Source: a virus (Duplodnaviria > Heunggongvirae > Uroviricota > Caudoviricetes). Taken from it: DNA of 19,672 nucleotides. The notes under the pieces were generated by a model. The model was given only the letters and a program-made list of their open reading frames with translations, did not search any database and was not told the origin of the DNA. Positions 7,328 to 9,477 of this stretch are shown piece by piece (position 1 is the first letter of the stretch; each line of letters opens with the position of its first letter). The stretch is taken from positions 1 through 19,672 of the IMG/VR virus record IMGVR_UViG_2531839666_000030; one strand, given 5' to 3'. The translations under genes and the position numbers were made by a program.

Positions 7328-7870
7328 ATGGCATATTTTTATTTCAAATTAGACCGTGTACAGACAAATAAATATTTCACCAAATATCAACAGACTGTTT
7401 TACCGCTACGCAACAGTATTCTTCGGGCATTACTGAAAAATACAGGCGCTGCCGGATTGCGCTTAAAGCCGTTCGCCATGGACGTAATCAGTGAGTTTTA
7501 TTTTTCTGGTTCTCTGCCTGCGGGCTGGCGTAAGCGCGATGATGTGGCTTTTATCGGGGGCGGACCGTGCTTTATTGCCAGACCTGATGAGTCATGCCCT
7601 GAAGGTCCGGCGATTGCCGCAATGGTTGAAGCCGCTGAACGCGAGTTAAGAAAGCGTCCTGATTTCCTTGTCTGGCTCTGTGAAAAGCTGGGGGTAATGA
7701 GAATCCCCTCCATGTTTAACACGGACTCCTGGTGGACCCCGTCACTCTCCCGTGATGCCCTGTGCGTGGTGTTTAAAGTAGGCGCTTATGGCAGGGAAAT
7801 AAACGGGTGTATTCCTGAAGAATGCCAGGAAATTAAACATTCTGAATATGTGGCGCTGACGGAGGAATAA
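7328..7870 (+). CDS. hypothetical protein (180 aa), first gene of a tightly coupled four-gene accessory cluster
   Basis: ORF preceded by a 97-bp intergenic gap after gam and AAGGAACAGGAA upstream of the ATG. No recognised domain. Confidence 0.5.
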   Translation: MAYFYFKLDRVQTNKYFTKYQQTVLPLRNSILRALLKNTGAAGLRLKPFAMDVISEFYFSGSLPAGWRKRDDVAFIGGGPCFIARPDESCPEGPAIAAMVEAAERELRKRPDFLVWLCEKLGVMRIPSMFNTDSWWTPSLSRDALCVVFKVGAYGREINGCIPEECQEIKHSEYVALTEE

Positions 7871-7873
7871 TTC

Positions 7874-8407
7874 ATGATTGATGCAAAAGTGCTTGAAGGG
7901 GTTAAAAACTGGCTGCGTATTTACGGACGTCTGACCTGCGGTGTTCTGGCTGAAAAAATGAATATGCCGCCATCCTCCATGGTTTATTTTCTGCGTGATG
8001 CGGTTGATGCCGGGGTGCTGACGGAATGTAACGGTTTTTATGATATTCCGCGTCCCCGCCCGGTGCAGCCGGTTCGTCGCAAATGCAGCCAGGAATGTGC
8101 GGCTGATGATGTTCAGTGGTGCAGCTTCAGAAAGTCCCTGCCGTGGATTGAGGGGCATGATATTCCGTCGATGGCGTGGGAATTTGCTCAGGGCGTACTG
8201 ACCTGCGAAACCGTTTATGTGGTGGCTGAAGTTGATGAGCAGGCCATGAAAGAAGGCGTGCCCCAGTTTGTGATGGCGTATATCGACATACGCCTGGGTG
8301 TCATCATCTGCGGTTTAAGCGGCTGGAATATCACCGCGCGTGTTCTGCGTTACCTGATTGTTGACCGGACGGCCGCGCCTGCCGGGATATCTGCGGAGGT
8401 GGCGTAA
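7874..8407 (+). CDS. hypothetical protein (177 aa), possible winged-helix N-terminus
   Basis: Starts 3 nt after the previous stop. N-terminal GRLTCGVLAEKMNMPPSSMVYFLRDAVDAGVL resembles an HTH / winged-helix segment (inference only). Confidence 0.45.
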   Translation: MIDAKVLEGVKNWLRIYGRLTCGVLAEKMNMPPSSMVYFLRDAVDAGVLTECNGFYDIPRPRPVQPVRRKCSQECAADDVQWCSFRKSLPWIEGHDIPSMAWEFAQGVLTCETVYVVAEVDEQAMKEGVPQFVMAYIDIRLGVIICGLSGWNITARVLRYLIVDRTAAPAGISAEVA

Positions 8408-8922
8408 TGTTCTTTAAAACATCAAACCCTTCCGCGCTGGCCGCGTGGAAAAAATATCAGCAGGACTGCCAGAAAGTTAAGGATGAGGCAAAACGCCTTG
8501 AGGCCGTGCTGAATGTTGCGTGCCGGTCGGTATTTGTATCCGGTATCAGTGGCTTTTGTTTTAAAGGGCTGCGCTTTATGGATGACAAATATCCTTTTCA
8601 TCGCGACTTATGGCGAAAACCGACTGCGTCGAATGGCTGGAGCTGCACACCGCGCACATCACGTATTCCCAAAGCCCTGCGCGTTGCCTCTGACGAACTT
8701 AACAGTCTGTGGCGTGAATATTCGCCCGTCACGTATGCCAGAACCGATGCCCTGTTGTTCTGGCTGGGCATTGACTTTTCAGCAATATTGCATGGTCCCG
8801 TGAAGTGGTTCTGCGTTGACGATGTTATTTACCTTCAGTGCGAAGATGATTCCGCAAAACGGAAAATGACCGAAATTCTGTCTGATGAGTTTTATGCTGC
8901 TGAAAAGCGAGTCAGGGGGTGA
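8407..8922 (+). CDS. hypothetical protein (171 aa)
   Basis: Start overlaps the previous stop by 1 nt. No recognised domain. Confidence 0.45.
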   Translation: MFFKTSNPSALAAWKKYQQDCQKVKDEAKRLEAVLNVACRSVFVSGISGFCFKGLRFMDDKYPFHRDLWRKPTASNGWSCTPRTSRIPKALRVASDELNSLWREYSPVTYARTDALLFWLGIDFSAILHGPVKWFCVDDVIYLQCEDDSAKRKMTEILSDEFYAAEKRVRG

Positions 8923-8925
8923 TGT

Positions 8926-9477
8926 ATGATGATTTTACAACCCATGGGGCGAAAAGGCCGTGCACCCGCTCATGTCCGTGCGTGGACACCTGAAGAAGAT
9001 GCACTGCTGATTGCGCTTTATCCATCCACCCCGGTTAAGGATATTGCTGTCAGGGTAAAAAGAAGTTTCTGGGGTGTACATAACCGGATTGTTTTATTAC
9101 GCGGTACTTACCCGGAGTTGCTCAAATGCAAACGTCCAAGATTTAAACATGATGAAGATAAATTTATCCGAAAAAATGCCAGAACGATGACCGGTAAGCA
9201 AATAGGAGAATATCTGGGGCGAGACCGGGATTCTGTCCACAAACGGGCGCGATATATTGGCGTAAGCATGAAAAAATACGGAGAGTTGCTGCCCTTCACC
9301 CGTATACCTGATGATGATGTTCATCTTATTCGTGAATTACGGGATGCTGAATCACCACGACGTCTTACCTTCCGGGAAATAGGCGAGAAATTTGAATTAT
9401 CCGAGAGTACGGTGAATTTTATTTATCACCATCGCCGGACTGCCGAGGACGCTGTATTACGGGAGTTAACGCCATGA
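8926..9477 (+). CDS. putative DNA-binding protein (Myb/SANT-like N-terminal segment, C-terminal HTH)
   Basis: 183 aa with AGGGGG Shine-Dalgarno 6-7 nt upstream. WTPEEDALLIALY...KDIAVRV...GVHNR looks Myb/SANT-like; LTFREIGEKFELSESTVNFIYHHRR resembles a sigma-70 region-4 / LuxR-type HTH. Pattern-level inference. Confidence 0.45.
   Translation: MMILQPMGRKGRAPAHVRAWTPEEDALLIALYPSTPVKDIAVRVKRSFWGVHNRIVLLRGTYPELLKCKRPRFKHDEDKFIRKNARTMTGKQIGEYLGRDRDSVHKRARYIGVSMKKYGELLPFTRIPDDDVHLIRELRDAESPRRLTFREIGEKFELSESTVNFIYHHRRTAEDAVLRELTP

What the first reader, a model, noticed from the sequence alone, without database searches (positions are those of the whole stretch)
7328..9477. Tightly coupled four-gene cluster of unknown function downstream of gam
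Four genes of 171-183 aa each have stop/start spacing of 3 nt or less, or overlap, which suggests translational coupling and a stoichiometric complex. None resembles a known Mu protein that I can recall. The last one has Myb/SANT-like and HTH-like segments, the second a possible winged helix. Because it sits in the accessory region of a transposable phage, this is a strong candidate for an undescribed host-takeover, anti-defence or defence module.
Basis: inference. Interest (0 to 1): 0.65.

Follow-up and report, generated by a model that had tools for sequence, protein, structure and literature searches.

The report
Mosaic Mu early accessory genes
The four tightly packed genes are real, but they are ordinary, individually swappable accessory genes of phage Mu's early operon (relatives of Mu gp11, gp12 and gp9 plus a DUF5420 protein); they are not a four-part machine, and their functions are still unknown.

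Summary
The four ORFs exist as described: 180, 177, 171 and 183 aa, with junctions of +3, -1 and +3 nt. The tight packing is not special to them. Fourteen of the 15 junctions from MuB to gemA lie between -11 and +11 nt.

The claim that none resembles a Mu protein is wrong:
- ORF-B is Mu gp11 (68% identity, Pfam Gp11_C).
- ORF-C is Mu gp12 (53% identity, Pfam Phage_Mu_Gp12).
- ORF-D is a three-repeat HTH relative of Mu gp9.
- ORF-A is 39% identical to the DUF5420 protein that SfMu carries in the same slot.

In 67 related loci the genes assort independently: ABCD 22, B alone 14, BC 12, AB 7, ABC 7, BCD 5. gp12-family genes also occur in lambdoid and Lastavirus early operons that have no gp11. 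An obligate four-subunit complex is therefore not supported.

PADLOC gives no hit for A, B or C and only a sub-threshold homing-endonuclease hit for D. There are no PDB relatives by sequence or fold.

New details: profile comparison shows that A and C are remote paralogs flanking gp11, and a conserved non-coding element follows gam.

Verdict: new members of known, uncharacterised Mu semi-essential early-region families. Low to moderate interest.

The parts
7231..7327 (+). Conserved non-coding spacer between gam and the first gene. Its core is TTTTAATTATGGCGC..CGTCAGGGGA..GCGCCTG, with a short GGCGC/GCGCC hairpin. The role is unexplained.
   Evidence: The spacer is conserved across Mu, SfMu and window-type loci (38 distinct versions from 78 sequences; direct comparison). 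In these same loci Gam is only 58% and gp11 only 68% identical. The fold energy is not unusual (z = -0.10). There is no Rfam hit.
7328..7870 (+). ORF-A, 180 aa. It is a DUF5420-like protein in the variable slot between gam and gp11, and a remote paralog of ORF-C.
   Evidence: phrog_2260 at 5.7e-74. 39% identity over the full length (E = 6e-43) to SfMu ACQ86_gp11, annotated 'DUF5420 family protein'. The Pfam DUF5420 score is only 11.4 bits against a cut-off of 26. Only 14 homolog clusters were found, in E. coli and Salmonella. The slot is empty in Mu and in 5 of the 26 fully flanked window-type loci. hhalign against the gp12 family gives probability 80% and P = 1.6e-6, while controls reach at most 2.4%.
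7874..8407 (+). ORF-B, 177 aa. It is the homolog of Mu gp11: an N-terminal three-helix (possibly winged-helix) region, a variable Pro/Arg-rich linker, and the Gp11_C domain.
8407..8922 (+). ORF-C, 171 aa. It is the homolog of Mu gp12 (Pfam Phage_Mu_Gp12), an alpha+beta protein with no solved structural relative.
8926..9477 (+). ORF-D, 183 aa, basic (pI 10.0). By inspection it reads as three tandem HTH/Myb-like repeats, and it is a longer relative of the apparently two-repeat Mu gp9. It is predicted to bind DNA.
   Evidence: phrog_323 'transcriptional regulator' at 2e-58. 30% identity to Mu gp9 over 103 aa. Weak Pfam HTH hits fall at residues 131-167. It is 35% identical over the full length to a 'DNA binding protein' of Citrobacter phage Shae_phiSM, and partial matches (about half of D) lie in ORFs annotated HNH endonuclease or DNA methylase in mycobacteriophages. 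D and an upstream gp9 are mutually exclusive in 62 of 67 loci, and 5 loci have neither. pI.
9474..11012 (+). Continuation of the same tightly packed early operon: four small ORFs (61, 124, 65 and 98 aa) and gemA. This shows that the tight packing does not end at 9477.
   Evidence: The junctions are -4, -4, -8, -11 and -4 nt. GemA matches Pfam at 9.5e-30. In sister loci the small ORFs alternate with Mu gp13/gp14-type cassettes.
11017..11040 (+). The only + strand terminator-like hairpin in 5300-11700. It marks the end of the transcription unit that contains the four genes.
   Evidence: Consensus scan: stem of 9 pairs followed by a T-run. No + strand promoter-like site was found between 5300 and 11700.

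Best explanation
[quoted passage not shown] It holds four separately exchangeable accessory genes:
- ORF-A, a DUF5420-type protein.
- ORF-B, the homolog of Mu gp11.
- ORF-C, the homolog of Mu gp12.
- ORF-D, a three-repeat HTH relative of Mu gp9.

Shown: the identities above, the operon-wide compaction, and the independent presence or absence of A, C and D.

Inferred:
- The genes are co-transcribed with the rest of the early operon from the repressor-controlled early promoter, and translated in the compact head-to-tail fashion typical of the whole operon.
- Each protein acts on its own during the first minutes of lytic growth, not as a subunit of one complex.
- D, and perhaps the N-terminal part of B, bind DNA.
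- A and C are paralogous small alpha+beta proteins that bind a host or phage partner. Cassette-like turnover of these genes reflects adaptation to different hosts.
- The most likely roles are non-essential stimulation of Mu replication or lytic development, and modulation of host functions. These are the genetically defined but gene-unassigned SEE functions such as arm, cim and sot.
For: Identity of the genes.

The window is a Mu-like prophage with the order c-ner-A-B-...-gam-...-gemA-mor-lys. It is 98.9% identical to one E. coli chromosome and present in 232 of 5,426 genomes.

One transcription unit and operon-wide packing:
- No + strand promoter-like site, and a single + strand terminator-like site after gemA.
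- 14 of the 15 junctions from MuB to gemA lie within -11 to +11 nt.

Independent assortment in 67 loci with both flanks covered: ABCD 22, B only 14, BC 12, AB 7, ABC 7, BCD 5.
- Where A is absent, the gam->B gap is only 102-149 nt.
- Where C is absent, only 105-900 nt separate B from gemA. Divergence beyond detection therefore cannot explain the absences.
- Among loci with gp11 at least 90% identical, 5 of 26 lack A. In the rest the slot holds either the window type or a type 24-28% identical to it.

gp12-family genes occur without gp11 or DUF5420 in a lambdoid prophage and in the Klebsiella Lastavirus early operon.

D and an upstream gp9 are mutually exclusive, as expected for positional alternatives of one function.

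Against: - No function is demonstrated for any of the four proteins here or in the papers searched.
- The B-C overlap (TAATG) is conserved between Mu and this phage, and B is flanked by two paralogs. A pairwise gp11 interaction with a gp12/DUF5420-type protein therefore remains possible.
- The loci were collected with gp11 as bait, so nothing can be said about phages that lack gp11 except from the few gp12-baited loci.
- The B model is low-confidence, so its DNA-binding role is weakly based. Its N-terminal region is acidic (pI 5.0), which is unusual for a DNA-binding winged helix.
Confidence: 0.68

Rival explanations
1. gp11 (B) works as a two-component unit with a gp12/DUF5420-superfamily partner. 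C and its remote paralog A would be alternative or additional partners of gp11. The conserved 1-nt stop/start overlap would ensure co-translation.
For: - The B/C TAATG overlap is present in both Mu (6954/6954) and the window (8407/8407).
- A and C are remote paralogs placed on either side of gp11 (hhalign probability 80%, P = 1.6e-6, controls at most 2.4%).
- 53 of 67 loci have A, C or both next to B.
- The 3' end of A is co-inherited with gp11 at the DNA level. The SfMu similarity block starts 62 nt before the ATG of B. All A subtypes end in IKHSE[FY][VI]A[LI]TEE.
Against: - 14 of 67 loci have gp11 with neither A nor C.
- gp12-family genes occur in lambdoid and Lastavirus phages with no gp11 homolog. 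HMM searches at E <= 1 found none in 14.5-kb contexts.
- No interaction was tested.
Confidence: 0.2
2. One or more of the genes are anti-defence or host-takeover factors. The diversifying A slot and the gp12 superfamily are the best candidates. They would neutralise a host immunity protein early in infection. This keeps the first reader's idea but applies it to single genes.
For: - Early expression context.
- The SEE region is non-essential (PMC4553209).
- Cassette replacement at the gam-gp11 slot among otherwise near-identical phages: at least five subtypes, or an empty slot.
- Wide and patchy spread of the gp12 family in early operons of unrelated temperate phages.
- Small proteins with no enzyme-like hits.
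Against: - No anti-defence HMM library was available, and no match to any characterised protein was found.
- None of the proteins is strongly acidic like DNA-mimic anti-restriction proteins (pI 5.2-10.0).
- Mosaicism is typical of all early-region phage genes and does not by itself indicate an arms race.
Confidence: 0.22
3. The four genes encode a stoichiometric four-subunit complex, or a prophage-encoded anti-phage defence system.
For: Stop/start spacing of +3, -1 and +3 nt, and similar protein sizes.
Against: - The spacing is the same throughout the operon.
- Only 22 of 67 related loci have all four genes, and every partial combination occurs.
- PADLOC gives no hit for A, B or C, and only a 16-bit homing-endonuclease hit to the HTH repeats of D.
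- The genes lie inside the early lytic operon with no promoter-like site of their own. Established Mu biology holds that this operon is silent in lysogens.
Confidence: 0.04

Closest known systems
Phage Mu gp11 (Mup11; formerly E10-E12) and gp12 (Mup12; formerly E13); Pfam PF25754 Gp11_C and PF26885 Phage_Mu_Gp12
   Same: ORF-B and ORF-C align with them over their full length (68% and 53% identity). They have the same order, the same position after gam and the conserved spacer, and the same 1-nt TAATG overlap.
   Different: They are divergent alleles. DNA identity is about 71%, and only over B and the start of C. Here they are flanked by two extra genes (A and D) that Mu lacks at these positions. 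The Mu proteins themselves have no known function.
SfMu ACQ86_gp11 and Salmonella 'DUF5420 family protein' (Pfam PF17457)
   Same: ORF-A occupies the same slot between gam and gp11, has the same length, is 36-39% identical over its full length, and shares the invariant C-terminal IKHSE[FY]VALTEE.
   Different: It scores below the Pfam gathering threshold (11.4 against 26 bits), so it is a separate subtype. At least five subtypes share the slot.
Phage Mu gp9 (Mup09; formerly E8); phrog_323 'transcriptional regulator, D5-like'
   Same: ORF-D has the same HTH-repeat unit and is 30% identical over two repeats. Each phage has one or the other, never both.
   Different: By inspection D has three repeats (183 aa) where gp9 has two (99 aa). 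D lies downstream of gp12, whereas gp9 lies upstream of gam.
Early-left (pL-type) accessory genes of lambdoid and other temperate phages, for example the gp12-family gene in prophage L086 and SopranoGao gp54/gp63
   Same: Small, non-essential-looking early genes of unknown function, tightly packed and exchanged as single-gene cassettes. gp12-family and D-like HTH genes are present there.
   Different: Those phages replicate and integrate differently (integrase rather than transposition), and they lack gp11 and DUF5420.

Membership tests
Mu gp11 family (Pfam PF25754 Gp11_C) | Match to the Gp11_C model above the gathering score, and full-length colinearity with Mu gp11 | tested here: met
   136.3 bits against a cut-off of 27, E = 4.6e-40. 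68% identity over residues 1-177 against 1-176 of Mu gp11.
Mu gp12 family (Pfam PF26885 Phage_Mu_Gp12) | Sequence membership in the family, and colinearity with Mu gp12 | tested here: met
   The model is missing from the local Pfam copy (no hit). However, all 46 homolog clusters carry a precomputed PF26885 hit (name), and ORF-C is 53% identical to Mu gp12 over 168 aa.
DUF5420 (Pfam PF17457) | Score above the Pfam gathering threshold | tested here: not met
   11.4 bits against a cut-off of 26, E = 0.27.
DUF5420 (Pfam PF17457) | Significant full-length pairwise homology to annotated members, in the same genomic slot | tested here: met
   39% identity, E = 6e-43, to the SfMu 'DUF5420 family protein'. 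36% identity to a Salmonella DUF5420 protein. Conclusion: ORF-A is a homologous sister subtype, not a member by the curated threshold.
Mu gp9 / phrog_323 HTH-repeat regulators | Match to the family profile, and a recognisable HTH repeat unit | tested here: met
   phrog_323 at 2e-58 over residues 2-182. gp9 at 3e-9. Sub-threshold Pfam HTH hits at residues 131-167. DNA binding itself was not tested.
Known anti-phage defence systems (PADLOC-DB v2) | Match of any component to a defence-system model | tested here: not met
   No hits for A, B or C. D has only a 16-bit hit to a homing-endonuclease model through its HTH repeats.
Operon-encoded obligate multi-subunit complex | The component genes co-occur and keep their order across relatives | tested here: not met
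   Only 22 of 67 loci have all four genes, and every partial combination is seen. The gp12 family occurs without the others.
Operon-encoded obligate multi-subunit complex | Physical interaction of the products | not testable with these tools
   No multimer prediction or experiment was available.
Known anti-defence proteins (Ocr/ArdA-type DNA mimics and catalogued anti-defence families) | Strongly acidic DNA-mimic composition | tested here: not met
   pI values are 7.6, 5.2, 9.0 and 10.0 for A to D.
Known anti-defence proteins (Ocr/ArdA-type DNA mimics and catalogued anti-defence families) | Match to anti-defence HMM collections (dbAPIS, AntiDefenseFinder) | not testable with these tools
   No such library is offered. 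Pfam, NCBIfam, PHROGs and PDB searches gave no characterised relative.

The most novel reading that the evidence does not exclude
The DUF5420 and Phage_Mu_Gp12 families form one widespread superfamily of about 170-aa phage early proteins with a fold not seen in the PDB. In this phage two paralogs bracket gp11. The cassette-like turnover at the gam-gp11 slot would be an arms-race signature of proteins that disarm a host defence or hijack a host factor, possibly with gp11 as a DNA- or protein-binding partner.
Probability: 0.2. Interest if true: 0.55.

Novelty: new member of a known kind. Interest (0 to 1): 0.25.

Why it matters
As submitted, the finding is not a new system. It re-discovers the unassigned part of phage Mu's semi-essential early region in an E. 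coli Mu-like prophage. That region is a long-standing loose end: genetically defined functions (arm, cim, sot) have never been tied to genes.

The analysis adds three concrete handles:
- gp11 was the bait used to collect the loci and is present in all of them. A, C and D are optional, so gp11 is the first gene to knock out.
- DUF5420 and gp12 are remote paralogs of a much larger family (at least 181 clusters at 50% identity). That family also occurs in lambdoid and other temperate phages, so a function found for one member would annotate many.
- A non-coding element after gam is conserved more strongly than the flanking genes.

None of this changes the low prior that the four genes form a defence or anti-defence module.

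Tried and rejected
Searches that gave nothing:
- PADLOC: nothing beyond a 16-bit homing-endonuclease hit for D.
- NCBIfam: nothing useful.
- PDB sequence searches for A, B, C and D: no relatives.
- Rfam over the whole window: no hits.

Structure work:
- The afdb50 Foldseek library was not available.

A-C paralogy:
- The first hhalign with narrow alignments was not significant (E = 0.56).
- HMM-versus-sequence searches also failed.
- The relationship appeared only with broad profiles, and I checked it against reversed, column-shuffled and block-shuffled controls.

Locus collection:
- The broad gp12 alignment was too diverse for a viral-contig scan.

Other checks:
- Literature searches for Mu gp11/gp12, DUF5420, Mup11/12, arm/cim/sot and early-operon studies found no functional data on these genes. 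The Sp18 mention in PMC13502914 concerns prophage loss, not function.
- The hairpin in the spacer after gam is not thermodynamically unusual, so I do not claim an RNA structure.
- I considered that gp11 might be related to the DNMK gene found upstream of a gp12 homolog in L090. I rejected this because B has no DNMK hit in Pfam.
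Full report
**What the window is**

The window is a Mu-like prophage of E. coli.
- The gene order is c repressor (1298-1816, minus strand), ner, MuA (2236-4344), MuB (4415-5347), several small ORFs, gam (6700-7230), the four genes in question, four more small ORFs, gemA (10503-11012), mor (11082-11507), lysozyme, and then head genes.
- The 2.5-kb query around the finding is 98.9% identical to an STEC chromosome. It is present in 232 of 5,426 complete E. coli genomes, including O157:H7 strains at about 97.7% identity. In that chromosome the prophage lies next to cyuA.
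- The Mu-like prophage of O157 Sakai is known as Sp18 (PMC2669165, listed).

**Checking the observation**

- Their junctions are +3, -1 (TAATG) and +3 nt, and each start has a Shine-Dalgarno-like motif.
- All four match PHROG families at E = 2e-58 to 3e-105, so they are real genes.

The tight spacing is not a property of these four genes.
- Of the 15 consecutive junctions from MuB to gemA, 14 lie between -11 and +11 nt. Downstream of 9477 the overlaps are -4, -4, -8, -11 and -4 nt.
- The only larger gaps are gam->A (97 nt) and gemA->mor (69 nt).
- A consensus scan finds no + strand promoter-like site between 5300 and 11700. The single + strand terminator-like hairpin is at 11017-11040, just after gemA.
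- By spacing alone, the natural block is nine genes (7328-11012), not four. The packing is the ordinary compaction of a phage early operon.

**What the genes are**

The statement that none resembles a Mu protein does not hold.
- ORF-B is the homolog of Mu gp11. It is 68% identical over the whole length and matches Pfam PF25754 'Phage Mu Gp11 C-terminal domain' at 4.6e-40.
- ORF-C is the homolog of Mu gp12, at 53% identity over 168 aa. All 46 of its homolog clusters carry PF26885, whose name is Phage_Mu_Gp12. The local Pfam copy lacks that model.
- In Mu these two genes sit in the same place, after gam and a spacer of about 100 nt, with the same 1-nt overlap.
- ORF-D matches phrog_323 ('transcriptional regulator', 2e-58) and is 30% identical to Mu gp9 over 103 aa.
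  - By inspection D reads as three copies of an HTH/Myb-like unit, of which gp9 appears to have two. The repeat alignment is weak.
  - D is basic, with pI 10.0.
  - Partial matches covering about half of D lie in mycobacteriophage ORFs annotated HNH endonuclease or DNA methylase, and in Vibrio, Klebsiella and P1-like phages. A Citrobacter Mu-like phage has a full-length relative annotated 'DNA binding protein'.
- ORF-A has no counterpart in Mu itself. It is 39% identical over its full length (E = 6e-43) to the SfMu protein in the same slot between gam and gp11, annotated 'DUF5420 family protein'. It scores below Pfam's own DUF5420 threshold (11.4 against 26 bits).

None of these families has an assigned function.
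- All 120 listed gp11 homologs and all named gp12 homologs carry no functional name: 'hypothetical', one 'Mu prophage protein'.
- Paper searches found nothing on them.

**Is it a four-gene module?**

I collected 80 viral contigs with a gp11 profile and added Mu, SfMu and a Citrobacter locus. I then mapped gam, A, the SfMu DUF5420 protein, B, C, D, gp9, gemA and other genes onto them by tblastn.

Among 67 loci with both flanks covered, the combinations are ABCD 22, B alone 14, BC 12, AB 7, ABC 7 and BCD 5.

The absences are real and not the result of divergence.
- Where A is missing, the gam->B distance is only 102-149 nt.
- Where C is missing, B is followed by gemA after as little as 105 nt.
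- Among loci whose gp11 is at least 90% identical to the window's, 5 of 26 lack A. In at least two of them a 14-codon mini-ORF sits in its place.
- In the remaining loci of that group the slot holds either the window type or a type only 24-28% identical to it.
- D occurs only in loci that lack gp9 upstream of gam, and the reverse is also true. They are mutually exclusive in 62 of 67 loci, and 5 loci have neither. This fits positional alternatives of one function.

The gp12 family reaches well beyond Mu-like phages.
- An exhaustive HMMER search finds 181 representatives at the 50% clustering level. Nearly all are full-length proteins of about 170 aa.
- One member lies in a lambdoid prophage, between a CI/S24 repressor and a methylase-excisionase-integrase end.
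- Others lie in Klebsiella Lastavirus, in Vibrio phages of 77-85 kb, and in Pseudomonas and Acinetobacter phages.
- In SopranoGao the gp12-like gene (gp63) and a D-like HTH gene (gp54) sit in the early operon between the immunity switch and the integrase.
- Neither that region nor the lambdoid context contains any gp11 or DUF5420 homolog at HMM E <= 1.

An obligate, stoichiometric four-protein complex is therefore not supported.

**Structure and remote homology**

- The gp12 homolog gives a confident AF2 model (pLDDT 88.3, pTM 0.78) with an alpha+beta fold.
  - BFVD yields two unnamed viral proteins with TM about 0.75.
- The winged-helix idea for gp11 rests on sub-threshold hits only: HTH_20 in 3 of 21 homologs, best E = 0.017. 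The N-terminal region is acidic (pI 5.0).
- A new point is that A and C are remote paralogs.
  - A 16-sequence profile covering five A-slot subtypes was compared with a 139-sequence gp12-superfamily profile.
  - They align end to end over 153 columns, with hhalign probability 80% and P = 1.6e-6.
  - Reversed, 20 column-shuffled and 20 block-shuffled controls never exceed probability 2.4%.
  - Narrow profiles had missed the relationship.
  - Shared landmarks are the N-terminal [YF][YF]K strand and the C-terminal EIxxSE[FY] helix.
  - gp11 is therefore bracketed by two members of one superfamily.

**Most likely mechanism**

Shown:
- The four genes are separately exchangeable members of known Mu SEE-region families.
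- They lie within a stretch that has no + strand promoter-like site and a single terminator-like site after gemA.

Inferred:
- From established Mu biology, the early operon is transcribed from Pe and is silent in lysogens under the c repressor. The four genes would therefore be made in the first minutes of lytic growth, and a prophage-encoded defence role is unlikely.
- PADLOC shows no defence-system match, which agrees with this.
- D, and perhaps the N-terminal part of gp11, bind DNA.
- A and C bind a host or phage partner.
- Their roles are non-essential stimulation of replication or lytic development, or modulation of the host. This corresponds to the unassigned arm/cim/sot-type functions.

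An anti-defence role for single genes, especially the fast-turning A slot and the gp12 superfamily, is not excluded (about 0.2). The evidence for it is only contextual, and none of the proteins has the acidic DNA-mimic composition. A gp11-gp12/DUF5420 pairwise interaction remains a live rival (about 0.2). Points in its favour are the conserved overlap and the flanking paralogs. Points against it are the 14 loci with gp11 alone and the gp12 homologs found without gp11.

**Verdict**

The locus is a new allele set of known but uncharacterised Mu early-region families, and it is not a novel module. Interest is low to moderate (0.25). The useful residue is threefold: the DUF5420-gp12 superfamily link, the map of which genes are optional around gp11, and a conserved non-coding element after gam.

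Noticed in passing
window 7231-7327 (core about 7262-7305): The spacer of about 97 nt after gam is more conserved than the genes around it across the Mu, SfMu and window-type lineages. The core is TTTTAATTATGGCGC..CGTCAGGGGA..GCGCCTGAA, with a GGCGC/GCGCC hairpin. A 1-nt indel between lineages breaks the small ATG-ORF inside it, so the conservation is at the nucleotide level. The fold energy is not unusual (z = -0.10) and there is no Rfam hit. The function is unknown.
   Followed up: partly
L009 about 1050-1130 and L041 about 5925-6005 (the slot equivalent to window 7328-7870): Sister prophages whose gp11 is 94-98% identical to the window's lack ORF-A. In its place they carry a 14-codon mini-ORF (MKYVYIVINNVVGK) between the conserved spacer and the gp11 start.
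   Followed up: partly
L001 (Mu) 6400-6424, compared with window 7856-7873: Mu lacks ORF-A. Even so, the bases just upstream of the gp11 start read ...ACTGAGGAATAA, which would encode T-E-E-stop. This matches the invariant ...TEE-stop end of all A-slot proteins and contains the gp11 Shine-Dalgarno sequence. It may be a deletion scar, or a conserved ribosome-binding context.
   Followed up: no
window 9474-10506: The four small overlapping ORFs after ORF-D are 61, 124, 65 and 98 aa. The first is very hydrophobic (GRAVY 1.29). In sister loci they are replaced by Mu gp13/gp14-type cassettes, so the mosaicism continues downstream.
   Followed up: partly
window 11017-11040: A strong terminator-like hairpin (9-bp stem plus a T-run) lies between gemA and mor. 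This suggests the early transcript ends before mor in this phage.
   Followed up: no
window 1-1005, and about 1006-1297: The window starts inside a high-GC host ORF. In NZ_CP075665 that ORF is annotated as an N-terminally truncated pseudogene next to cyuA. The prophage left end has therefore interrupted a host gene.
   Followed up: no
L003 (SfMu) 7442-7957: SfMu has an unannotated stretch of 515 nt after its gp11 homolog. It encodes a gp12-like sequence; a tblastn match covers residues 39-164 of a gp12-family query. It is either a missed or a damaged gp12 gene.
   Followed up: no
L091 (Klebsiella phage SopranoGao) 4576-4923 and 7745-8281; L086 7001-7519: A D-like HTH-repeat gene and a gp12-family gene lie about 3 kb apart in the early operon of an integrase-type Klebsiella phage. 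A gp12-family gene also lies just past the CI-like repressor of a lambdoid prophage. Neither context has a gp11 or DUF5420 homolog.
   Followed up: yes
window 5840-6121: RefSeq names the 93-aa product of the equivalent gene in NZ_CP075665 'host nuclease inhibitor protein', although it is distinct from Gam. It has no Pfam or NCBIfam hit here.
   Followed up: no
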